A stretch of DNA of 64,000 nucleotides from Verrucomicrobiia bacterium (GTDB taxonomy: Bacteria; Verrucomicrobiota; Verrucomicrobiia; Limisphaerales; Pedosphaeraceae). Below, piece by piece: positions 1 through 60,445 of the stretch. Position numbers and translations under genes: made by a program. Position 1 is the stretch's first letter, and each line of letters begins with the position of its first letter. The notes beneath the pieces were generated by a model that was given only the letters and a program-made list of their open reading frames with translations, had not been told where the DNA came from and made no database searches. Where the stretch lies: contig DATAUW010000002.1 of the NCBI GenBank assembly GCA_036268055.1, positions 28,124 to 92,123 on the forward strand, read 5' to 3'.

Positions 1-1000
1 TCGGCTCGCCGCCCATCGTCAAGCGCACATCATTCTTTTTCAGGTCGGCGTCAATCTTGTGCCCAAGCGATTCGATCTCAATCCATTGTTCCTCGGTATA
101 AGGCTTCGTGACGCGCGGCGATTCGTAGATGCGCCGCACGGACATCTCGTGGGAAAATTTGGTTTTGCATTTGTCTATCGCGCCGCTCACGGGCGCCGCG
201 CCAGTGGGCTTGGGCGAACAGGCGAGGGGAATGTGCCCTTCCCCGGCGAAGAGTCCCGACGTGGGATCAAGACCGATCCAGCCGGCGCCAGGAAGATAAA
301 CTTCCGTCCACGCGTGCAGGTCAGTGAAATCAATTTCCGAACCGGATGGGCCGTCGAGCGATTTGACGTCGGGCTTGAGTTGAATCAGGTAGCCGGAAAC
401 GAAACGCGCAGCGAGGCCGAGTTGGCGAAGGATGTGGACGAATAGCCACGCGGAATCGCGGCAGGAACCCGAGCGGAGTTGCAAAGTCGTCTCGGGCTTT
501 TGCACGCCCGATTCCATGCGGATGAGATACTTGATGTCGCGCCAGAGCTTTTGGTTGATCTTGACCAGGAAATCAATCGTGCGCGCTTCCGACACATCCA
601 CGGTCTGAAGATATTCCGCGAGAAAGGGCCCGGGCGTCCGCTTTTTGATGAACGGGCCGAGTTCCTTTTTTAGGGCGGGCTCATATTGAAACGGATATTT
701 TTCAGCAGACGGTTCGAGGAAAAAATCGAACGGATTGTAAACCGCCATCTCGGCGATGAGATCAATTTCAACGAGGAATTCCGTGGCTTTATCAGGAATG
801 GTGAGGCGCGCGAGGTAATTGCTGAAGGGGTCCTGCTGCCAGTTGAGAAAATGTTTCTCGGGAAGAATTTTTTGCGAGTAACTGAGAATGGGCGTGCGGC
901 AATGCGGCGCGGGTCGTAGGCGGATGACGTGCGGCGAATGCGCGACCGGGCGGTCGTACAAATAATGGGTGCGATGATTAAGCGCGACGTGTATGGGCAT
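1..1000 (-). CDS. Transglutaminase-like family protein. Partial: the C-terminus runs off the left window edge. Third gene of the CP-ATP-grasp/alpha-E/transglutaminase module.
   Basis: Manual translation of the minus strand from the ATG at 1000 gives MPIHVALNHRTHYLYDRPVAHSPHVIRLRPAPHCRTP..., which is a Bact_transglu_N-type N-terminus. This is followed by ...LQLRSGSCRDSAWLFVHILRQLGLAARFVSGYL..., which contains the transglutaminase-core catalytic Cys. The frame is open to position 1. It is absent from the ORF track because it is edge-truncated. Confidence 0.85.
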   Translation of the reverse strand, partial: MPIHVALNHRTHYLYDRPVAHSPHVIRLRPAPHCRTPILSYSQKILPEKHFLNWQQDPFSNYLARLTIPDKATEFLVEIDLIAEMAVYNPFDFFLEPSAEKYPFQYEPALKKELGPFIKKRTPGPFLAEYLQTVDVSEARTIDFLVKINQKLWRDIKYLIRMESGVQKPETTLQLRSGSCRDSAWLFVHILRQLGLAARFVSGYLIQLKPDVKSLDGPSGSEIDFTDLHAWTEVYLPGAGWIGLDPTSGLFAGEGHIPLACSPKPTGAAPVSGAIDKCKTKFSHEMSVRRIYESPRVTKPYTEEQWIEIESLGHKIDADLKKNDVRLTMGGEP

Positions 1001-1044
1001 GAGTCGGTGGCGAGATGGTTTTTGTGCGCCGTGGTATGGGACGT

Positions 1045-1290
1045 TGATTTTGACGCAGAGGCGCAGAGGCGCAGAGGCGCAGAGGAGGAAAGAATGGCGA
1101 GATAATGAAAGAAATGAGTTTTTCTTCATCCCATTTCTGTCCTCGCTTAATTACGAAATGAGATTTCACGAGCGCCAACAGCTTGTGATTTATACGTCTA
1201 AGCCACCTGCTGGAGTCTTCTCCCTCTCCGCCGCTTGCGGGGGAGAGGGTTGGGGAGAGGTGGTCCCGTTCACCCCATTTATGGATAAGG
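1045..1290. repeat. Composite repeat region, a degenerate MITE-like relative of the element at 53091-53204. It includes a tandem octamer (gcagaggc) of about 4.5 copies at 1054-1090 and an inverted repeat ccctctccgcc..ggggagaggg at 1215-1250.
   Basis: ttttgacgcagaggcgcagagg... matches the left TIR of the element at 53091. The internal ggaaagaa..atgag string is shared with it. It occupies the unusually long spacer between the alpha-E and transglutaminase genes. Confidence 0.45.
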
Positions 1291-5916: not shown

Positions 5917-5952
5917 CGCGGGCAGGACGTTCGTTCTGCCCGCGATTTTTTT
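5917..5952 (+). terminator. Rho-independent terminator of the 4527-5888 gene
   Basis: cgcgggcag / gacgttcgtt / ctgcccgcg stem-loop followed by tttttt. Confidence 0.55.
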
Positions 5953-5990
5953 GACCACAGATTGAACACGAATAAACCCGAAATCGAACG
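5951..5990 (+). repeat. Small dispersed intergenic repeat, family A (ccacagattgaacacgaataaacccgaaatcgaac). It is a divergent member.
   Basis: Shares the ccacgga/ccacaga-t-gaacacg-a core with the copies at 12235, 12945 and 33699 (reverse orientation). Confidence 0.4.
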
Positions 5991-6087
5991 TAAAACAGAC
6001 TTTGACGCGTATTGCTAAAAGCTAATGCAAAGTTTTCGAGCCAATCGTTTCAAGCATTCGATTCAGCCTAACGCCTTTTTCCTTTTG

Positions 6088-6120
6088 AACTGAAAACTGA
6101 AAACTTGAAACTGAAAACTC
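6088..6120. repeat. Tandem heptamer array (tgaaaac)(tgaaaac)(ttgaaac)(tgaaaac), upstream of gltX
   Basis: Direct reading of ctgaaaactgaaaacttgaaactgaaaactc. Similar arrays occur at 58087-58122, 37318-37345, 12193-12215 and 13505-13530. Confidence 0.5.
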
Positions 6121-6231
6121 TCTGCCGCGTTTACTCTGTGGCTGAAAAAAGAGCATTGAGTAACACTTGCCAGTCTGGGCGGAGACGCATTAGGGTGGGG
6201 AGAATTTGATTTTGGAAATTTTATATTCAAT

Positions 6232-12156: not shown

Positions 12157-12234
12157 AAATATTCCGCGTCAGGCGGACGAAGATTTGCGGGAAAAGGCGG
12201 AAGTTTCAAGGTTTGAGTTCGTCGGGAGAAAACT

Positions 12235-12272
12235 TTCAGCCACGGATTGAACACGGAAAAAACACCGATTGG
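12235..12272 (+). repeat. Dispersed intergenic repeat, family A (ttcagccacggattgaacacggaaaaaacaccgattgg), upstream of pgsA
   Basis: Near-identical to 12945-12983. The two copies flank pgsA in the same orientation. Confidence 0.5.
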
Positions 12273-12943: not shown

Positions 12944-12944
12944 T

Positions 12945-12983
12945 TTTCAGCCACGGATGAAACACGGATTAAACACGAATGGG
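12945..12983 (+). repeat. Dispersed intergenic repeat, family A (ttttcagccacggatgaaacacggattaaacacgaatgg), downstream of pgsA
   Basis: Direct-repeat partner of 12235-12272. Confidence 0.5.
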
Positions 12984-21852: not shown

Positions 21853-22038
21853 AACCATCGCATTTTTTACTTGTGTCCAGCGAAAAAATGTCATTACTTT
21901 AGTGGCCGTCCGAGAGCAGTGGCTTAGTGATCCGGAAATTGTCAGATGAAAGCTTAGCGCTATGACGATTTGAGACCTAACAACGGGAACGTTCACCAAT
22001 GCACGACTTCGCGGATAAACAACGAAAGTATCAAGCTA

Positions 22039-32064: not shown

Positions 32065-32574
32065 TCAAGTCGTCGCTAAATTGCCCAGCTTATTGGACAT
32101 CTGTTTGATCTCGTCGCGCAACAAGGCGGCCTGCTCAAAATTTTCGTCGTCCACGGCCTTGGAAAGTTTTTTCTGCAACGTCTTCAAACGCTCGGTCAAC
32201 TCGCGGCTCTGTTGAAGCGATTGCGGCACCTTGCCGACGTGGTGCGTGCCCTTGTGCATGGTCTTGAGCAACCCTTCGAGGCCCTCCGCGAAGGTCGCAT
32301 AACATTCCGCGCAACCGAGGCGTCCGGCTTTTTTGAAATCCGCTTGCGTGAAACCGCACTTGGGACATTTCAAATCCGCGCCGCCGGAGGCCGCTTCCAA
32401 TTCCTGCGAAGCGCCGAGGCCGAGCAAAAGATCGGCAAGCGAAAAGCCGGTGGGATCGTTGACGCCTTTTTGCTTGGCGCATTCTTCGCACAAATCTACC
32501 TTCTGCATCTTGTCGCCCTGAATCTGGGTCAGATGCACGGTGGCTTCTTTTTCTTTGCAAACACAACACAACAT
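32065..32574 (-). CDS. mcsA: Protein arginine kinase activator McsA (two CxxC zinc ribbons plus a UVR domain)
   Basis: 169 aa. CCVC..CEEC and CPKC..CAEC pairs. A C-terminal UVR-like helix (AALLRDEIKQM). Confidence 0.8.
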   Translation of the reverse strand: MLCCVCKEKEATVHLTQIQGDKMQKVDLCEECAKQKGVNDPTGFSLADLLLGLGASQELEAASGGADLKCPKCGFTQADFKKAGRLGCAECYATFAEGLEGLLKTMHKGTHHVGKVPQSLQQSRELTERLKTLQKKLSKAVDDENFEQAALLRDEIKQMSNKLGNLATT

Positions 32575-32578
32575 ACGG

Positions 32579-32743
32579 TCAATTTTTATCGCTTAACAAC
32601 TGCGCCAAATCTATTCCGGCGGGATTGTTCAATCCCTTTTTCCGGGCGCATTCTTCGCAGAAATCTTTCGCCCGCGCGGTGTCTCCCTGCACCTGGCTCA
32701 AGTGCACGGACGCTTCCTTCTCTTTACAGACGCAACACAGCAT
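32579..32743 (-). CDS. Mini-McsA. A 54-aa stand-alone zinc-ribbon paralogue of the McsA N-terminus.
   Basis: Manual translation gives MLCCVCKEKEASVHLSQVQGDTARAKDFCEECARKKGLNNPAGIDLAQLLSDKN. This is near-identical to McsA residues 1-50 (MLCCVCKEKEATVHLTQIQGD...CEECAKQKGVNDPTGFSLADLL). Its stop lies 4 nt before the mcsA start. It is below the ORF-track size cut-off. Confidence 0.5.
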   Translation of the reverse strand: MLCCVCKEKEASVHLSQVQGDTARAKDFCEECARKKGLNNPAGIDLAQLLSDKN

Positions 32744-32754
32744 ATCCTTGATAT

Positions 32755-33621
32755 TTATATCGGCTCACCGGAGCTATTAGTCAAGGTGTGGTAGGCCTTA
32801 ATCAGCTTTTGAGTCACGGGACCAGGCTTGCCGGTGCCGATGACGCGGCCATCAATTTTCACCACGGAAATCACTTCCGCACCGGTGCCGGTCAGGAAGC
32901 ATTCTTCCGCATTGAACATATCGTAACGCGTCAGGTTCGGCTCGTTTACGGTCAAACCAGCTTCGACCGCGAGATCCATCACCGCTTTGCGGGTGATGCC
33001 GTAAAGCGCGCCTGCCGAAAGCGGCGGGGTGGACAAAGTATTGCCATTGAGGATGAAGATATTGTCGCCAGTGCATTCCGCGACGTAACCCTCGGCGTTG
33101 AGCATGATGGCTTCTTCGACGCCGCCATTGTTCGCCTCGATTTTCGCGAGGATGTTGTTGAGATAATTAAGCGACTTGATCGCCGGATTGAGCGCGCTGT
33201 GCAGGTTGCGCGTTGTGGCCACGGTGATGATGTCCAGTCCGCGTTTGTAGAACGATTCAGGATAAAGCTGGATTTTGTCCGCGATGATGATGACGGACGG
33301 ATTTTTGCAGCGGTTGGGATTCAGTCCGAGCGTGCCCACGCCGCGTGTCACGACGAGGCGGATATAGCAATCACGCAATTTATTTCTGCGGCAGGTCTCG
33401 ACGACGGCTTTCATCATCTCGGCATGCGAGAGAGGAATGGTGAGCAGCAGTGCCTTGGCCGAGCAAAAAAGCCGGTCAATGTGTTCTTTCAAACGAAAGA
33501 CGCGGCCATTGTAAGCGCGAATTCCTTCAAAGATTCCATCGCCATAAAGCAAGCCGTGATCGAACACGGACACCTTGGCGTCCTTCTCTGCCACATATTT
33601 TCCGTCGAGATATATTTTCAT
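32755..33621 (-). CDS. ilvE: Branched-chain amino acid aminotransferase (class IV PLP enzyme)
   Basis: 288 aa. Family-level similarity (DHGLLYGDGIFEGIRAY, catalytic Lys region). Confidence 0.9.
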   Translation of the reverse strand: MKIYLDGKYVAEKDAKVSVFDHGLLYGDGIFEGIRAYNGRVFRLKEHIDRLFCSAKALLLTIPLSHAEMMKAVVETCRRNKLRDCYIRLVVTRGVGTLGLNPNRCKNPSVIIIADKIQLYPESFYKRGLDIITVATTRNLHSALNPAIKSLNYLNNILAKIEANNGGVEEAIMLNAEGYVAECTGDNIFILNGNTLSTPPLSAGALYGITRKAVMDLAVEAGLTVNEPNLTRYDMFNAEECFLTGTGAEVISVVKIDGRVIGTGKPGPVTQKLIKAYHTLTNSSGEPI

Positions 33622-33698: not shown

Positions 33699-33775
33699 GA
33701 ATCCGTGTTCCTCCGTGTTCCATCCGTGGCCAAAATTTCTTTCCCCCAGTGGCCGTCCGCAAGGATCTTCGTGGT
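33699..33775. repeat. Junction of two dispersed repeat families. A family A copy in reverse orientation (gaatccgtgttcctccgtgttccatccgtggccaaaa) lies immediately next to the family B core (tttcccccagtggccgtccgcaaggatct).
   Basis: Sequence matches to 12945-12983 (reverse complement) and to 53155-53185. Confidence 0.45.
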
Positions 33776-33828
33776 AAAAAAATGCTTCTCACTATACACA
33801 ACCGCAAATGTTTGCTAATCTCTCCGAT

Positions 33829-37273: not shown

Positions 37274-37381
37274 GTATGTGAATTATCTGTAACTCAAAAG
37301 TTTTTACAAAGCTTTCTTGCTCCTGCGGAAAACTTGAAACTGAACGCTTTAAACTTTCCGCAATTCGGATTAACTACATCC

Positions 37382-50596: not shown

Positions 50597-50775
50597 TTTC
50601 CCCTAACTGAAGTTAGGGATTAATGAGAAGTGTTGGGCAAGTAGGTGAGGGTTGGTTCCATAAGCGGATTTCTTTCGTCCCTTCGGGACTTGATTTGCAA
50701 TGGACGCAAACCCAGCAATAAATTGCTGGGCAAATATCTGCCGTCCCTGCGGGACTTCGGACGGGGAGCGTCAGC
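50597..50775 (+). repeat. Structured ~180-nt repeat element, copy 1 (candidate ncRNA or MITE). It contains a 7-bp-stem/UGAA-loop hairpin, two gtccc-N3/4-gggac hairpins, and the 20-nt perfect palindrome cccagcaataaattgctggg.
   Basis: About 80% identical to 60270-60445. Both copies lie in convergent intergenic spacers. Confidence 0.55.
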
Positions 50776-50887: not shown

Positions 50888-52483
50888 CTAGTGCGGTGCG
50901 GCCTTGGGACTGCCCTGCCATTCCAAAACTTGTTTTTCGGCGAGGAGTTGGGCCTGGAGTTTGGCGACGTCAATTTTTTGCACCGCCACTTTATCATTGA
51001 TCGCTTCGCAAGCGGCAGCGGCGGAGGATTGACCGAGCACCATGAAAACCGGTTCCATACGAATGGAGCCGTAAGCGATGTGCGTTGAGGAAAGGCAGAC
51101 GGGGACGAAAAGATTTTCGCACTCGGACACTTTCGGCACGATGGAACGATAGGCGATTTGATAGGGTGGGAAGCCGCCGATTTGAGTATCGCCTTCATTT
51201 TCGACGCGGCCATTTTTTACGATGCGCTGGCAGTTGTGCGAATCCATCGTGTAGGCGGCGAGGCCGATGGCGTCGGGAAGTTTGGTCGAGTCGCGGCAAT
51301 TATTTTCCGTCATGACGTAATCAGAAATCATGCGGCGCGCCTCGCGGATGTAAAGTTGATGGGGCCAGCCGCCGGTGTCGGTGAATTCATCTTTGGCCAG
51401 GCCCCATGATTGCATGTAGCGGCGCATGGTTTCGGGAACGCGCGGGCTGGTCGCGAGAAAGTAGAGGAAACCGCGCGTGTAATCTTCGTGTTCGCGAAAG
51501 ATCTGTTCACGTCGCGTGTAATTCGCCTCGGGATAATCGTAACTCGCGCCAATAAAATCAGTGGAGAAACCGCCGTTGTTGTTGATGTCGGTTTTGCCGT
51601 TCGGCATCGGCTGGATGTGCATGAACTCGCCAAGCTTGGGGTTTTTGCCGGCGGCGACAAGGGCTTCGAGGTAACGCGCGAGTAGTTCGTAGCGCGCGGG
51701 ATCGTAATTGGCAGGCGCGGCGATGGGAATTTTGTTGGTGGGATTTTGCGTGAGGCAGAGGCGGAAATTGTACGCTTGCACGCAACGGTCACCGGCACCG
51801 GGCACGCCGCCATCGCCGGGTTGAACCAGGGGAATCAAGCCGCTGGTTGGGTCGCCGGGTTTCACGTAGGGATCTACGGCAATGGTGAATTGATGCTTGG
51901 GCGTTTGGGGGCGGACGCCATCGAGGGTTTCGTGATATTGCGAATTGGGTTCACGCCCGACGAAATAGGAAACGCCGGCGCGCGCCATGAGGTCGCCTTC
52001 ATAGCTGGCATCAATGAACATTTTCGCGCGAAAAATATTGCCATTTTCCATCACGATTTCCGTGATGCGCGCGCCGTCTTTTTTTACGGAGGCAAGGCGT
52101 TGTTGAAAATAGACGGGCACTTTGGTTTCGTGCGCCATTTTGACGAAGATATTTTCGGCGACGCTAGGCTCGAAGGACCATTGTTCCTCCTTGTGATAAT
52201 GGCGGCCCATGCGCTGATAGAATTCGCGCGAGAGACCGCCGATGGCGGCTTTGTTGCCGATGTCGGTTTGGCTGAGGCCGCCAGAACTCATGCCGCCGAG
52301 ATGCGAACCGAATTCGGTGAGGACGACAGATTTGCCAAGGCGCGCGGTTTCAACGGCGGCGATGACTCCGCCGGCAGTGCCGTCGTAAACGCAAACGTCG
52401 GCGGTGATGATTTCAGCGGCGGAATTGTGCGCAGCGAGCGCGGACGCGGCGCAGAACAAAAACGCGCGCCAGAATTTTTTCAT
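50888..52483 (-). CDS. Secreted FAD-dependent oxidoreductase (FAD_oxidored family)
   Basis: Signal peptide MKKFWRAFLFCAASALAA. FAD-binding dinucleotide motif VCVYDGTAGGVIAAVETAR. The ORF-track N-terminal extension to 52579 was rejected. Confidence 0.7.
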   Translation of the reverse strand: MKKFWRAFLFCAASALAAHNSAAEIITADVCVYDGTAGGVIAAVETARLGKSVVLTEFGSHLGGMSSGGLSQTDIGNKAAIGGLSREFYQRMGRHYHKEEQWSFEPSVAENIFVKMAHETKVPVYFQQRLASVKKDGARITEIVMENGNIFRAKMFIDASYEGDLMARAGVSYFVGREPNSQYHETLDGVRPQTPKHQFTIAVDPYVKPGDPTSGLIPLVQPGDGGVPGAGDRCVQAYNFRLCLTQNPTNKIPIAAPANYDPARYELLARYLEALVAAGKNPKLGEFMHIQPMPNGKTDINNNGGFSTDFIGASYDYPEANYTRREQIFREHEDYTRGFLYFLATSPRVPETMRRYMQSWGLAKDEFTDTGGWPHQLYIREARRMISDYVMTENNCRDSTKLPDAIGLAAYTMDSHNCQRIVKNGRVENEGDTQIGGFPPYQIAYRSIVPKVSECENLFVPVCLSSTHIAYGSIRMEPVFMVLGQSSAAAACEAINDKVAVQKIDVAKLQAQLLAEKQVLEWQGSPKAAPH

Positions 52484-53001
52484 TTGGGGGAGGGACGTGA
52501 ATGAGGGGCTTCGGACTTGGCTTTGGCATTGGCGGCGGACTGGTCTTTCATGGGGCGAAAATTTCCCTGTTCGCAGCATTGCACAAAACCTTCAGTGACG
52601 GATTTCAATTCCTCCCAGCGGCCGCGGATGTCGGCGGCTTCACTGGCGACGATTTGGTTGTCGGCAACGGCGGTGGCGATGACAGCGAGGAGGTCGGCGA
52701 ATTCCTGGATGATTTCATTGGTGGCGGGAATGAGAAATTCCTGGTGAGCATTATGCGTCTTGGGATTCTTGATGAAGAATCCGCCGTTGCGCTGGCAGAG
52801 CCATTGGACGATGCGCAGATCGCCGGTGCATTTTTGGAGGGCGTCAATGCGATCGAGGGGATTGGCGGTTCCGCTGCCGACGGTGGCCTCGGGTGGCTCA
52901 GCCCATTTGTAAATCATGGAGAGCGAAAGGCTCAACTCGGCGGCGACTTGTTTGGCGCTGCATTTCTGAAAAACTTCGCGCAATAACTCGTGAGATTGCA
53001 T
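52480..53001 (-). CDS. Hypothetical protein, possibly a helix-turn-helix DNA-binding regulator
   Basis: 173 aa. The segment QVAAELSLSLSMIYKWAEP resembles an HTH. No confident family assignment. Confidence 0.35.
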   Translation of the reverse strand: MQSHELLREVFQKCSAKQVAAELSLSLSMIYKWAEPPEATVGSGTANPLDRIDALQKCTGDLRIVQWLCQRNGGFFIKNPKTHNAHQEFLIPATNEIIQEFADLLAVIATAVADNQIVASEAADIRGRWEELKSVTEGFVQCCEQGNFRPMKDQSAANAKAKSEAPHSRPSPK

Positions 53002-53090
53002 GGGAAACTAAAATGCAGGGAGCGGTGGGAATTGCAAGCCAGAAGGGCGTGTGGTGTATTCGTGAGCGTTGGGGTTTTCGGTGAATTAGA

Positions 53091-53204
53091 TTTGACGCAG
53101 AGGCGCAGAGCGGGGAAAGAAATGAGACGAGGATGAAGGGATATTATTCATGACTCTTTTTCCCAGTGGCCGTCCGCAAGGACCTCTGTGCCTCTGCGTC
53201 AAAA
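53091..53204. mobile_element. MITE-like non-autonomous element (~114 bp) with 20-nt perfect TIRs tttgacgcagaggcgcagag / ctctgtgcctctgcgtcaaa
   Basis: TIRs read directly from the sequence. The internal core tttcccagtggccgtccgcaagga recurs at 33745. The left TIR plus an octamer expansion recurs at 1048-1090. No coding capacity. Confidence 0.5.
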
Positions 53205-53393
53205 ATGATTTGGAATGATGGCGTGATTGCTTCGATGCGGGTTATAAACGCGGGATGAAATTATAAATGATTTTGAATCGGGCGCGTTGTATCAAATGGA
53301 GCATGCGAAGCGGAGAGGATTTGGCGGCTTGAAATTCCTTGCTGGGCAAATGGATTTCGCGGATAAGTAAAGAAAACGAACAGGCGGGTATTT

Positions 53394-58086: not shown

Positions 58087-58122
58087 GCGGGGAAGTTTCA
58101 AGTTTGAAGTTTCAAGTTTTCA
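58087..58122. repeat. Heptamer array (minus-strand reading: tgaaaac ttgaaac ttcaaac ttgaaac), upstream of sixA
   Basis: Direct reading. Related to the 6088-6120 array. Confidence 0.45.
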
Positions 58123-58286
58123 GTTGGGACGGCGGAGCGGCAGTTCCGCCCTACCGCGCGGTGGATTTCCGAATGCGGTGGTAAAGATCGAGAGTTGATA
58201 GGTGCGGAAATGAGTTGAGGCAGGTTGCGTGTGGGATTGACTTCTGTTGCGTGGAGACGGAATGATTGCGGGAACACAATTCACCC

Positions 58287-60269: not shown

Positions 60270-60445
60270 TTTCCCCCGGCTGAAGCCGGGGGTTAATGAG
60301 AAGCGATTGGTTTTTGCGGGCGATGGAAGAGTGGCGGCGGAATTTCTTTCGTCCCTGCGGGACTTAATTTATGACGGATGGGAACCCAGCAATAAATTGC
60401 TGGGCTAAGTTCTGTCGTCCCTGAGGGGACTTTGGACGGCCGAGC
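60270..60445 (+). repeat. Structured ~180-nt repeat element, copy 2 (candidate ncRNA or MITE)
   Basis: Paralogue of 50597-50775. The 5' hairpin ccccggc-tgaa-gccgggg retains pairing through 3 compensatory changes relative to copy 1. Confidence 0.55.

What the first reader, a model, noticed from the sequence alone, without database searches (positions are those of the whole stretch)
53091..53204. MITE-like element with 20-nt perfect terminal inverted repeats, and relatives elsewhere in the window
tttgacgcagaggcgcagag ... ctctgtgcctctgcgtcaaa bracket a 74-nt non-coding core that contains tttcccagtggccgtccgcaaggac. The left TIR, followed by a 4.5x tandem expansion of its internal octamer gcagaggc, recurs at 1048-1090 inside the alpha-E/transglutaminase spacer. 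The core recurs at 33745-33775. There is no transposase in the window, so it would be mobilised in trans. This points to an active or recently active miniature inverted-repeat element family in this genome.
Basis: seen in the sequence. Interest (0 to 1): 0.55.

Follow-up and report, generated by a model that had tools for sequence, protein, structure and literature searches.

The report
Octamer-repeat palindrome with nested mini-element
A 113-base non-coding palindrome between two divergent genes of a Pedosphaera-like soil bacterium belongs to a repeat type found in many bacterial phyla, built from tandem 8-base words, carries a separate 21-base dispersed mini-repeat inside it, and lacks the hallmarks of a transposase-driven MITE.

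Summary
The sequence features are real, with small corrections. The arms are 19/20 complementary, not perfect. The octamer array at 1054-1085 has 4.0 copies, not 4.5. The window holds no second full copy.

The MITE reading is only partly right. The "TIR" is a cap, TTTGAC, followed by tandem CGCAGAGG octamers. The same 19-mer occurs in more than 120 places in about ten other phyla. There it nearly always forms the two arms of 56-150-nt hairpins whose loops are unrelated. No target-site duplication exists, and no transposase lies between arms anywhere. The only cargo found is a GxxExxY (PD-(D/E)XK) gene.

Independently sampled GxxExxY genes and four-helix-bundle (23S-rRNA-IVS/Avd-like) genes are also flanked by short tandem repeats, inverted in nearly every case.

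The "core" is a separate 21-nt GNRA-hairpin module. Soil metagenomes carry it in unrelated contexts, often inside the loops of other hairpins.

Five relatives with the same gene order lack both the hairpin and the module. Their promoter-proximal blocks are conserved, but the middle of the spacer is hypervariable.

Best reading: lineage-specific, selfish or neutral palindromic repeat DNA. It resembles cyanobacterial STRR/SDR repeats and REP elements. It is neither a regulatory hairpin nor a classical MITE. How it spreads is unknown.

The parts
53091..53110 (.). Left arm: cap TTTGAC followed by about 1.75 octamers (GCAGAGGC GCAGAG).
   Evidence: An exact copy lies at 1049-1068. The same 19-mer occurs in more than 120 loci of other phyla.
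53184..53203 (.). Right arm, CTCTGTGCCTCTGCGTCAAA. It is 19/20 complementary to the left arm, with one G:T position.
53084..53090 (.). AT-rich outward extension of the palindrome on the left. Its partner is 53204-53210.
   Evidence: 27-nt arms at 85% complementarity. One search shows the same T|TTGAC...GTCAA|A continuation in 18-20 of 26 copies elsewhere.
53204..53210 (.). AT-rich outward extension of the palindrome on the right.
53112..53164 (.). Inner imperfect palindrome: GGGGAAAGAAATGAGACGAGGATGAA ... TTCATGACTCTTTTTCCC. It contains GGATGAA-type purine words.
   Evidence: Minimum-free-energy fold, coordinates. Similar GGATGA/GGATGG words fill the same spacer in the relatives.
53163..53183 (+). 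21-nt module CCAGTGGCCGTCCGCAAGGAC, which forms a GUCC-GCAA-GGAC mini-hairpin. It sits between the inner palindrome and the right arm and has no counterpart in the left half.
1049..1085 (.). Solo arm: TTTGAC plus 4.0 perfect CGCAGAGG octamers, with no partner arm. It lies in the spacer between the alpha-E gene and the transglutaminase gene, both on the - strand.
   Evidence: In one search the transglutaminase N-terminal domain starts at residue 49 of ORF 5-1129(-).
33746..33766 (+). Second copy of the 21-nt module (CCAGTGGCCGTCCGCAAGGAT, where the last base makes a G-U pair).
33701..33735 (.). Pyrimidine-type repeat arm ATCCGTGTTCCTCCGTGTTCCATCCGTGGCCAAAA, upstream of the second module. No partner arm is present.
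33767..33782 (.). Short pyrimidine-type arm CTTCGTGGTAAAAAAA directly after the second module. It parallels CTCTGTGCC...GTCAAAA after the first module.
   Evidence: A relative with 99%-identical frr has TTTCCGCGGTTAAAAAA at this position.
5946..6150 (.). Second, weaker palindrome of the same general type. Its outer arms are TTTTTTTGACCACAGATTGAACACG and CGCGTTTACTCTGTGGCTGAAAAAA.
   Evidence: (z = -2.6).
12234..12269 (.). Solo purine-type arm TTTCAGCCACGGATTGAACACGGAAAAAACACCGAT.
   Evidence: (family D11).
12944..12980 (.). Solo purine-type arm TTTTCAGCCACGGATGAAACACGGATTAAACACGAAT.
   Evidence: (family D11).
21901..21912 (+). 12-nt partial match to the module (AGTGGCCGTCCG). It does not contain the hairpin part.
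   Evidence: 3 matches against 0.3 expected.

Best explanation
SHOWN. The region 53084-53210 is a composite piece of non-coding repeat DNA made of three nested layers.
1. An outer stem of 20-27 bp. Its arms are a TTTGAC cap plus tandem CGCAGAGG octamers.
2. An inner imperfect palindrome of purine-rich words.
3. A separate 21-nt module (CCAGTGGCCGTCCGCAAGGAC, a GNRA mini-hairpin) inserted in the right half only.

The outer palindrome belongs to a type found across phyla: hairpins whose arms are short tandem repeats and whose loops are unrelated. The same kind of arms also brackets small genes, namely GxxExxY (PD-(D/E)XK) proteins and four-helix-bundle (23S-rRNA-IVS/Avd-like) proteins. At this locus the element is lineage-specific. 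It lies in the one part of the divergent spacer that is not conserved, between the two conserved promoter-proximal blocks.

INFERRED.
- It is selfish or neutral DNA, not a regulator of the flanking CII-like and NfeD/flotillin genes.
- It arrived or grew by a process that depends on palindromes or hairpins rather than by cut-and-paste TIR transposition, because there is no target-site duplication and no transposase.
- Its arms lengthen and shorten by replication slippage of the octamer. The perfect 4.0-copy array at 1054-1085 is a recent example.
- The 21-nt module was added later. It behaves like the very small dispersed repeats (SDRs) of Nostoc.
- If read-through transcription crosses it in either direction, the RNA forms a 20-27-bp double-stranded stem. 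That is the kind of structure RNase III cuts, as it does with 23S rRNA intervening sequences.
For: Anatomy.

Distribution of the arms:
The chance figure is my own arithmetic: 18 fixed bases, 596 Gb, two strands.
- The loci span Chloroflexota, Acidobacteriota, Pseudomonadota, Bacteroidota, Verrucomicrobiota, Gemmatimonadota, Planctomycetota and others.
- 80 of 129 matches have a partner arm within 3 kb, 58 of them giving elements of 56-149 nt, and the loops are not homologous.
- A strict pattern for arms of at least 3 units finds 154 in 840 kb of these loci and 0 after shuffling.

Cargo:
- GxxExxY genes sit between the arms in L020, L034, L068 and L083, with E-values of 1e-37 to 1e-39.
- Samples chosen by protein similarity, not by arm sequence, agree. 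Eight GxxExxY genes were sampled: two adjoining loci fetched for the arm pattern (L021, L109), four on plasmids and two in viral contigs. Seven have short tandem repeats of related words on both sides. The Sphingomonas gene has them upstream only.
- Six of six four-helix-bundle genes on plasmids have tandem-repeat flanks, built from other words. In Bernardetia (L177) the flanks look direct rather than inverted.

Lineage specificity: five syntenic relatives (NfeD 83-92% identical) lack the hairpin. Their spacers are 276, 298 and 210 nt in the three relatives where the whole spacer is on the contig, against 392 nt in the window. Both promoter-proximal blocks are conserved.

No target-site duplication. 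No transposase in the window.

The module is a separate entity:
- 31 metagenome contigs carry it, in several unrelated contexts, often in the loop of another hairpin.
- Variants keep the mini-hairpin through paired changes: GTCC/GGAC, GTCT/AGAC, GTGC/GCAC.

The organism uses ordinary GC-stem plus T-run terminators elsewhere in the window.
Against: - Mobility at this locus is not shown. The flanks of the hairpin cannot be aligned with any relative, so there is no exact empty site, only a hypervariable spacer. Local origin by slippage and template switching remains possible.
- The copy number in the source genome is unknown. Only 64 kb could be read, and it holds one full copy.
- No GxxExxY gene was found in the window or in roughly 200 kb of related metagenome loci.
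- In one lineage, loops without an ORF show no clear homology to the ends of the cassettes. A derivation from cassettes is therefore unsupported.
- A host function is not excluded. No transcript data exist.
- A test for G-U over A-C mismatches on the sense strand came out neutral, 43 against 36. That argues neither for nor against a role as RNA.
Confidence: 0.6

Rival explanations
1. It is a classical MITE: a deletion derivative of an insertion sequence, mobilised in trans by a transposase that recognises the 20-nt TIRs and makes target-site duplications.
For: - It has terminal inverted repeats, is 113 nt long and does not code for protein.
- It is absent from relatives.
- Some other genomes carry multi-copy families that share loops and flanks (L090/L095/L121, L024/L086, L120/L088).
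Against: - 26 copies show no target-site duplication.
- The arms are tandem octamers of variable number, and the two arms of one element often carry their unit variants in a different order.
- Loops are unrelated between genomes.
- No arm pair encloses a transposase in 120 loci. Arm-pair spacings do not cluster at insertion-sequence lengths.
- L090, a contig bounded by two copies, holds only ordinary genes.
- The window has no transposase.
Confidence: 0.08
2. It is a locus-specific regulatory hairpin or operator that controls the divergent CII-like regulator gene and the nfeD-flotillin operon, acting as a DNA cruciform or protein-binding site, or as a 5'-UTR structure.
For: - It lies in a divergent promoter region of 392 nt.
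- The predicted structure is very stable.
- The neighbouring gene encodes a CII-like DNA-binding protein.
Against: - It is absent from all five syntenic relatives. The sequence blocks next to both start codons are conserved, and the hairpin lies exactly in the non-conserved middle.
- The same arms occur in hundreds of unrelated contexts in other phyla.
- No Rfam family matches.
Confidence: 0.07
3. It is an intrinsic terminator, or a REP-like stabiliser of mRNA 3' ends.
For: In other genomes the hairpins lie mostly between co-directional or convergent genes and often within 70 nt of a stop codon: 24 tandem, 9 convergent and 5 divergent contexts, from crude gene calls.
Against: - At this locus both neighbouring genes point away from it.
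- T runs precede the stem and A runs follow it on both strands. That is the reverse of a terminator.
- The terminator scan finds nothing here.
- The genome has canonical terminators elsewhere.
Confidence: 0.05
4. It was made locally and is not mobile. Slippage of purine-rich microsatellites plus template switching in a fast-evolving spacer produced a palindrome. Its likeness to other phyla reflects a shared mutational bias or a shared sequence preference.
For: - The relatives carry different purine-rich tandem words (GGATGGA and similar) at the same place.
- The array at 1054-1085 is perfect and so recent.
- The two arms of an element are complementary only approximately.
Against: - An identical 19-mer including the non-repetitive TTGAC cap, present in at least ten phyla and many times above chance, is hard to get by convergence.
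- The arms are consistently linked with two horizontally moving small-gene families.
- Several genomes carry near-identical dispersed copies.
Confidence: 0.2

Closest known systems
Cyanobacterial STRR (short tandemly repeated repetitive sequences) and the small dispersed repeats (SDRs) of Nostoc (Elhai et al. 2008, Genome Res 18:1484). The paper could not be opened. It is cited from PMC3116915 and PMC5861425 and from my own knowledge.
   Same: - Intergenic arrays of 7-8-nt tandem words.
- Very small (21-27 nt) hairpin-forming dispersed repeats nested inside such arrays and inside other repeats.
- No associated transposase.
- Absent from orthologous sites in relatives.
- On Nostoc and Gloeocapsa plasmids, heptamer words of this kind flank four-helix-bundle genes in inverted orientation.
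   Different: - This is a Verrucomicrobium. [quoted passage not shown]
- The words differ (CGCAGAGG, CCACGGAT).
- The arms carry a conserved TTGAC/GTCAA cap.
- The same arm sequence is shared across phyla.
REP / BIME / REPIN elements (extragenic palindromes mobilised by RAYT transposases; PMC3116915).
   Same: - Short extragenic palindromes, often paired.
- No target-site duplication.
- Biased towards gene 3' ends and operon spacers.
- Non-autonomous.
   Different: - REP sequences are specific to a species and are not built from tandem repeats.
- They are defined by association with a RAYT gene, which was not seen here and could not be tested genome-wide.
- The arms here are shared between phyla.
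MITEs such as Correia/NEMIS elements of Neisseria.
   Same: Terminal inverted repeats, a size of about 100-150 nt, no coding capacity, and an intergenic position.
   Different: There is no target-site duplication, no cognate insertion sequence, no conserved internal sequence, and the arm length varies through octamer copy number.
23S rRNA intervening sequences that carry a PF05635 ORF (Leptospira and Coxiella type; PF05635 is described as Avd-like in PMC10053308).
   Same: A long stem encloses either nothing or one small ORF and is inserted into a host transcript. The stem is an RNase III substrate (established knowledge for these intervening sequences). Four-helix-bundle genes sampled here have tandem-repeat flanks, inverted in five of six cases.
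   Different: The window element has no ORF and does not lie in rRNA. RNase III processing was not tested.

Membership tests
MITE | Terminal inverted repeats | tested here: met
   19/20 complementarity over 20 nt, and 27 nt at 85%.
MITE | Target-site duplication flanking the element | tested here: not met
   The window flanks are ...TTAGA|TTTGAC...GTCAAA|AATGA, with no direct repeat. 26 clean copies elsewhere show none either. Their flanks continue the palindrome.
MITE | A cognate autonomous element, that is, a transposase gene between the same TIRs | tested here: not met
   No transposase lies between the arms in 120 loci. The only cargo is GxxExxY. L090 holds ordinary genes. The window has none. 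The source genome as a whole could not be scanned.
MITE | Many copies in one genome sharing internal sequence | tested here: inconclusive
   The 64-kb window has one full copy plus fragments. Some other genomes do carry such families.
MITE | Presence/absence polymorphism with a precise empty site | tested here: inconclusive
   Five syntenic relatives lack it, but the surrounding spacer cannot be aligned, so no exact empty site can be defined.
REP/REPIN | Association with a RAYT (Y1 transposase) gene flanked by the repeats | not tested
   No such gene is in the window. A genome-wide search was not possible.
REP/REPIN | A short imperfect palindrome, species-specific, in extragenic positions | tested here: not met
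   It is extragenic and palindromic, but the arm sequence is shared across at least ten phyla and is built from tandem octamers.
STRR / SDR type repeats (Nostoc) | Intergenic tandem repeats of 7-8-nt words | tested here: met
   CGCAGAGG in 4.0 copies. Other word arrays lie at 5946, 12234, 12944 and 33701.
STRR / SDR type repeats (Nostoc) | A 21-27-nt dispersed unit with its own hairpin, nested in other repeats and found in unrelated contexts | tested here: met
   The 21-nt module occurs twice in the window and in 31 metagenome contigs. Its contexts are terminator loops, REP-like arrays, a tRNA-like unit and tandem-repeat arms. The hairpin is kept through paired changes.
STRR / SDR type repeats (Nostoc) | Sequence identity with the described STRR or SDR families | not testable with these tools
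   The paper was not available. From memory the words differ (STRR1 is CCCCAGT, for example), so this would be a new family at best.
Rfam structured RNA families | Score at or above a family's gathering threshold | tested here: not met
   No family matches the element or 20 related loci. The only hits below threshold are plant microRNA precursor models at E > 3, which reflect nothing more than a long hairpin.
GxxExxY / four-helix-bundle hairpin cassettes (type inferred here) | Inverted tandem-repeat arms with a TT[CG]AC-type cap around the unit | tested here: met
   The window arms are identical to those around the GxxExxY genes of L020, L034 and L068.
GxxExxY / four-helix-bundle hairpin cassettes (type inferred here) | A small ORF as the loop, or recognisable remnants of one | tested here: not met
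   The loop is 73 nt and has no ORF. A GxxExxY profile finds nothing in the window. Loops without an ORF in Vicinamibacterales show no clear homology to cassette ends.

The most novel reading that the evidence does not exclude
Palindromes with tandem-repeat arms may be the empty form of a cross-phylum system of hairpin-embedded small-gene cassettes. The cargo genes would be a GxxExxY PD-(D/E)XK nuclease or an Avd-like four-helix-bundle protein. Such cassettes would insert into, or copy themselves between, palindromes, with the nuclease acting on hairpin or cruciform DNA and the repeated arms supplying homology. Host RNase III would excise them from host transcripts, as it does 23S rRNA intervening sequences. 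The nested 21-nt module would be the first SDR-type ('nanoMITE') element described outside the Nostocaceae.
Probability: 0.2. Interest if true: 0.75.

Novelty: new variant of a known kind. Interest (0 to 1): 0.5.

Why it matters
The element probably does nothing important at this locus. It does point to an under-described layer of bacterial genome content.

- Hairpins whose arms are tandem 7-8-nt words occur with identical sequence in Chloroflexota, Acidobacteriota, Verrucomicrobiota, Proteobacteria and other phyla.
- They flank two very abundant small-gene families of unknown function, GxxExxY and four-helix-bundle/23S-rRNA-IVS proteins. These genes sit inside ordinary operons, for example between fabD and fabG.

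If the link is causal, it gives a testable hypothesis for what these genes do and how they spread. It would also extend the Nostoc concept of very small mobile repeats to soil phyla.

In practice, such palindromes break assemblies. Contigs L090 and L170 end in them. They can also be mistaken for MITEs, regulatory RNAs or terminators.

Tried and rejected
- Rfam at gathering and at E-value thresholds, on the window, the element and 38 related loci. Only Acido-Lenti-1 elsewhere in the window and tRNAs were found. The element itself gives only chance hits to plant microRNA models.
- Full-text literature search for the octamer sequences: no papers. GxxExxY, PF13366 and PF05635 appear only in passing in the papers found. 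The Elhai 2008 paper is not held.
- blastn of the element against 72,556 plasmids: no match.
- Viral contigs: 5 arm hits and 0 module hits, so it is not mainly carried by phages.
- Target-site duplications: none.
- Transposase between distant arm pairs or in contig L090: none.
- Derivation of ORF-less loops from cassette ends in Vicinamibacterales: no clear homology.
- Bias towards G-U mismatches on the sense strand, as a sign of selection on RNA: 43 against 36, no signal, and the gene calls were crude.
- Promoter and terminator consensus scan of the spacer: uninformative.
- Exact empty site at the nfeD spacer and at the frr spacer. The relatives lack the repeats, but the flanks do not align. 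The closest frr relative's contig ends inside the repeat.
- Test of whether the module in a TrwC-type relaxase gene is a recent 21-nt insertion. It is an old resident there, present in short, medium and long forms, so it gives no clean insertion event.
- A tRNA origin for the module. It occurs as the variable arm of one tRNA-like gene, but no source tRNA was identified.
Full report
**1. Observation**

The region reads TTTGACGCAGAGGCGCAGAG (53091-53110), then 73 nt, then CTCTGTGCCTCTGCGTCAAA (53184-53203).
- The arms are 19/20 complementary. The exception is G53105 opposite T53189, a G-U pair on the + strand only.
- At 85% complementarity the palindrome extends to 27 nt.
- Shuffles give 0.00 expected matches to the arm.
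- The stretch folds at -61.9 kcal/mol on the + strand (z = -8.0) and -47.6 kcal/mol on the - strand (z = -6.7).
- The left arm recurs exactly at 1049-1068. An octamer array follows that Tandem Repeats Finder scores as period 8, 4.0 copies, 100% identity (1054-1085). There is no right arm at that site.
- The core recurs at 33745-33765 as an exact 21-mer. A 12-nt piece of it occurs at 21901.
- A Pfam sweep covered 57 of the 58 non-overlapping ORFs of at least 100 aa, and the 173-aa CII-like gene was scanned separately. No transposase, integrase or recombinase was found. The one unscanned ORF lies almost wholly inside the flotillin gene on the opposite strand.

**2. Setting**

The organism is a Verrucomicrobium related to Pedosphaera. 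Its NfeD is 68% and its frr 86% identical to those of P. parvula.

The element lies in a 392-nt divergent spacer. On one side is a 173-aa gene with a phage CII-like domain (52480-53001, - strand; PF06892). On the other is nfeD followed by flotillin (53394 onward, + strand). It cannot terminate either gene. The genome uses ordinary GC-stem plus T-run terminators elsewhere, at about 5910, 14150, 22420, 42740 and 57530.

**3. Anatomy**

The fold shows three layers:
- the outer stem;
- an inner imperfect palindrome (53112-53137 against 53147-53164) rich in GGATGAA-like words;
- a small separate hairpin, GUCC-GCAA-GGAC (53172-53183).

That small hairpin belongs to the 21-nt unit CCAGTGGCCGTCCGCAAGGAC (53163-53183). 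The unit has no counterpart in the left half, so it looks like an insertion into an existing palindrome.

**4. The arms elsewhere**

I scanned one genome per species (GTDB) for TTGACGCAGAGGCNCAGAG. My own arithmetic gives about 17 chance hits for 18 fixed bases in 596 Gb on two strands.

By the record titles, my count of the loci is:

| Group | Loci |
|---|---|
| Chloroflexota | about 46 |
| Acidobacteriota | 24 |
| Pseudomonadota | 24 |
| Bacteroidota | 5 |
| Verrucomicrobiota | 4 |
| Geobacter relatives | 4 |
| Gemmatimonadota | 3 |
| Planctomycetota | 3 |
| others | 7 |

Several genomes have 4-8 hits.

The layout is the same everywhere: (T)TTGAC, then 2-5 imperfect octamers (GCAGAGNC, GCAAAGNC, GCGGAGNC), then an unrelated loop, then the complementary octamers, then GTCAA(A).
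- 80 of 129 matches have a partner arm within 3 kb. 58 of them give total lengths of 56-149 nt, and the window's 113 nt is typical.
- No spacings cluster at insertion-sequence length.
- The two arms of one element often carry their unit variants in a different order. They are complementary because both are built from one word family, not because one is a copy of the other.
- A strict pattern for arms of at least 3 units finds 154 in 840 kb of these loci and none after shuffling.
- No Rfam family covers them.

**5. Tests of the MITE model**

- Target-site duplication. 26 copies with clean ends show no direct repeats. The base before TTGAC is T in 18 of 26, and the base after GTCAA is A in 20 of 26, so the palindrome simply continues.
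- Cognate transposase. Longer arm pairs enclose either nothing recognisable or one ORF of 131-147 aa. That ORF is PF13366 (PDDEXK_3) / TIGR04256 (GxxExxY), with E-values of 1e-37 to 1e-39. Contig L090, bounded by two inverted copies, contains only ordinary genes.
- Families within a genome. These exist in some other genomes: L090/L095/L121, L024/L086, and the tandem arrays in L120/L088. They could not be counted in the source genome.
- Context. Crude gene calls give 24 tandem, 9 convergent and 5 divergent contexts, which is a REP-like pattern.

**6. Link with small genes**

I sampled GxxExxY genes by protein similarity rather than by arm sequence.
- Two lie in loci adjoining the arm hits (L021, L109).
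- Four are on plasmids, from Gemmatirosa, Bacteroides finegoldii, Bernardetia and Sphingomonas.
- Two are in viral contigs.

Seven of the eight are flanked on both sides by short tandem repeats of related words (CACAGAGG, CGCAGAGG, CACGAAGG, CGCAGAT), with caps such as TTCACC...GGTGAA. The Sphingomonas gene has them upstream only. These genes sit inside ordinary gene rows: radA / FAD protein, ade / mannose-1-P guanylyltransferase, and fabD / fabG.

Six of six four-helix-bundle genes (PF05635) on plasmids of Chlorohelix, Bernardetia, Treponema, Nostoc and Gloeocapsa are also flanked by tandem repeats of other words: GGATGAA, TTTTAGAT, GCAGATT and GTGGAAAG/CTCTCCGC. The flanks are inverted in five of the six. 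In Bernardetia (L177) they look direct.

PF13366 is listed as function unknown with multiple transfers between divisions (PMC3424549). PF05635 is the 23S-rRNA-IVS/Avd-like family (PMC10053308).

I found no paper describing this association. The search covers only the held library.

The window has no GxxExxY ORF. In Vicinamibacterales, loops without an ORF show no clear homology to cassette ends. The idea that the window hairpin is an emptied cassette is therefore an inference, not a finding.

**7. Orthologous loci**

Five contigs keep the gene order FAD oxidoreductase (-) / CII-like (-) / NfeD (+) / flotillin (+), with NfeD 83-92% identical.
- In the alignment, the blocks next to both start codons are conserved...GGAATTGCAAGCC... 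on the left, and GGGTTATAAACGCGG...GAAATTATAAATGA... through to the ATG on the right.
- The middle of the spacer is hypervariable.
- None of the relatives has the hairpin or the module.
- The spacer is 276, 298 and 210 nt in the three relatives where it is complete, against 392 nt in the window. 392 minus 113 is 279.
- The relatives carry GGATGGA-type words in the middle instead.
- The flanks do not align, so no exact empty site can be defined.

The frr upstream spacer gives the same picture. A 90% relative lacks both the arms and the module, and the contig of a 99% relative ends inside a different arm.

These results argue against a conserved regulator. They are compatible with either a gain or rapid local turnover.

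**8. The core is a separate element**

The 20-mer CCAGTGGCCGTCCGCAAGGA occurs in 31 soil and peat metagenome contigs. Their flanks fall into unrelated groups:
- the loop of a terminator hairpin, GGCCGGGAG...CTCCCGGCC, beside tRNA arrays. The orthologous terminator in L137 has a GCAGAAT tandem repeat in its loop instead;
- a conserved unit of about 85 nt, possibly tRNA-like, found with differing flanks;
- positions inside or beside GGGACA...TGTCCCTACC palindrome arrays, once with a 22-nt direct duplication on both sides (L140);
- a position before a CTTCGCG-type arm (L143), as in both window copies;
- the variable arm of a tRNA-like gene, in variant form;
- a TrwC-type relaxase gene.

Variants keep the mini-hairpin through paired changes: GTCC/GGAC, GTCT/AGAC, GTGC/GCAC.

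In the relaxase gene it encodes PVAVRKD. Homologs show a short form, a medium form and a partly duplicated form. The GTGC/GCAC versus GTCC/GGAC change swaps His for Asp while keeping the hairpin. The unit is an old resident there, not a fresh insertion.

Its behaviour matches my recollection of the 21-27-nt small dispersed repeats of Nostoc. According to PMC5861425, those have not been found in HIP1-enriched cyanobacteria outside the Nostocaceae.

**9. Mechanism**

Shown: the anatomy, the cross-phylum distribution, the lack of MITE hallmarks, the lineage specificity, and the association of such arms with two small-gene families.

Inferred:
- The element is selfish or neutral repeat DNA, tolerated between two promoters.
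- Its arms change length by slippage.
- It spreads, if it spreads at all, by a palindrome-dependent route rather than TIR transposition.
- Any transcript through it, in either direction, carries a stem of at least 20 bp that RNase III could cut.

A test for RNA-level selection, G-U against A-C mismatches on the sense strand, gave 43 against 36, which is no signal.

**10. Verdict**

The MITE label is only partly right. The closest described relatives are STRR/SDR repeats, REP elements and ORF-bearing rRNA intervening sequences, and the element fits none of them fully. I rate it a new variant of a known kind, of moderate interest. The more novel cassette/homing reading is possible but unproven.

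Noticed in passing
window 50711-50756 and 60385-60431 (+): Two Acido-Lenti-1 RNA motifs (RF01687, 47.9 and 46.4 bits against a gathering score of 37). Each lies inside an 86-nt direct repeat, 50668-50753 and 60342-60427, 84% identical. This is another small dispersed repeat in the window, and the organism is a Verrucomicrobium rather than an acidobacterium or a member of Lentisphaerae.
   Followed up: no
window 6088-6119, 37328-37359, 58090-58125: Arrays of AACTGAAAACTTGAAACT-type words occur in three intergenic spots, in both orientations (inverted-repeat pairs I1, I2 and I10). This is a further family of tandem-repeat words.
   Followed up: no
window 5946-6150: A second palindrome of about 205 nt and the same general build (TTTTTTTGACCACAGATTGAACACG ... 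CGCGTTTACTCTGTGGCTGAAAAAA). It lies directly after a canonical terminator. Fold z = -2.6.
   Followed up: partly
window 32447-32589 and 32616-32758: A 143-nt direct repeat, 73% identical, with 169-nt spacing (family D2). It overlaps ORF 32212-32748, which has no Pfam hit.
   Followed up: no
window 53240-53393; alignment A1: The nfeD upstream block GGGTTATAAACGCGG..GAAATTATAAATGA...CCTTGCTGGGCAA..GATTT.GCGGATAAGTAAAGAAAAC is strongly conserved among Pedosphaera-like relatives. It probably holds the real promoter and leader of the nfeD-flotillin operon.
   Followed up: no
L126, L132, L139, L145 and other metagenome loci (L123-L153): Contigs carrying the 21-nt module often hold large tRNA gene arrays, up to 14 tRNAs in 4 kb in L139. 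One 91-nt tRNA-like gene has a module variant (GGTGGCCGTCTGCGAAGAC) as its variable arm.
   Followed up: partly
L128, L133, L137, L138, L144, L149 (alignment A2): A conserved unit of about 85 nt, GCATAAGTGTTGAGAGAnACACG[module]CCTTCCAAACCGGAATrCAGGGCGCGATACCCTGATGC, occurs with unrelated flanks. It may be a tRNA-like small RNA gene. No Rfam family matches it.
   Followed up: partly
L131/L153 (1003-aa ORF); L172, L173, L174: A TrwC-type relaxase/helicase gene contains the module in frame. Homologs differ by a 9-nt deletion or a 15-nt partial duplication at this spot. A compensatory change that keeps the hairpin (GTGC..GCAC against GTCC..GGAC) alters His to Asp.
   Followed up: yes
L162 (Sphingomonas parapaucimobilis plasmid, NZ_CP155749.1 482494-483656): A GxxExxY gene sits between fabD and fabG, preceded by the array CACGCGAAGGCGCGAGGACGCGAAG. 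Similar insertions lie between radA and its neighbour in Bacteroides (L160) and after ade in Bernardetia (L161).
   Followed up: partly
L140 around 101-120 (-): The module plus one C is flanked on both sides by the same 22-nt sequence, CATCGCAGCGCGATTGTCCCTA, which is part of a REP-like palindrome. This is either a long duplication made on insertion or an insertion between two tandem repeat units.
   Followed up: no
L170 start; L090 both ends: Metagenome contigs end inside these tandem-repeat palindromes, which suggests that they break short-read assemblies.
   Followed up: no
window 53121-53135 and 1088-1099: Directly after the left arm, both copies have a Shine-Dalgarno-like purine run followed by ATG and a 3-4-codon mini-ORF: GGGGAAAGAAATGAGACGAGGATGA and GGAGGAAAGAATGGCGAGATAA. 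This could be the remnant of a cargo gene start, or chance.
   Followed up: no
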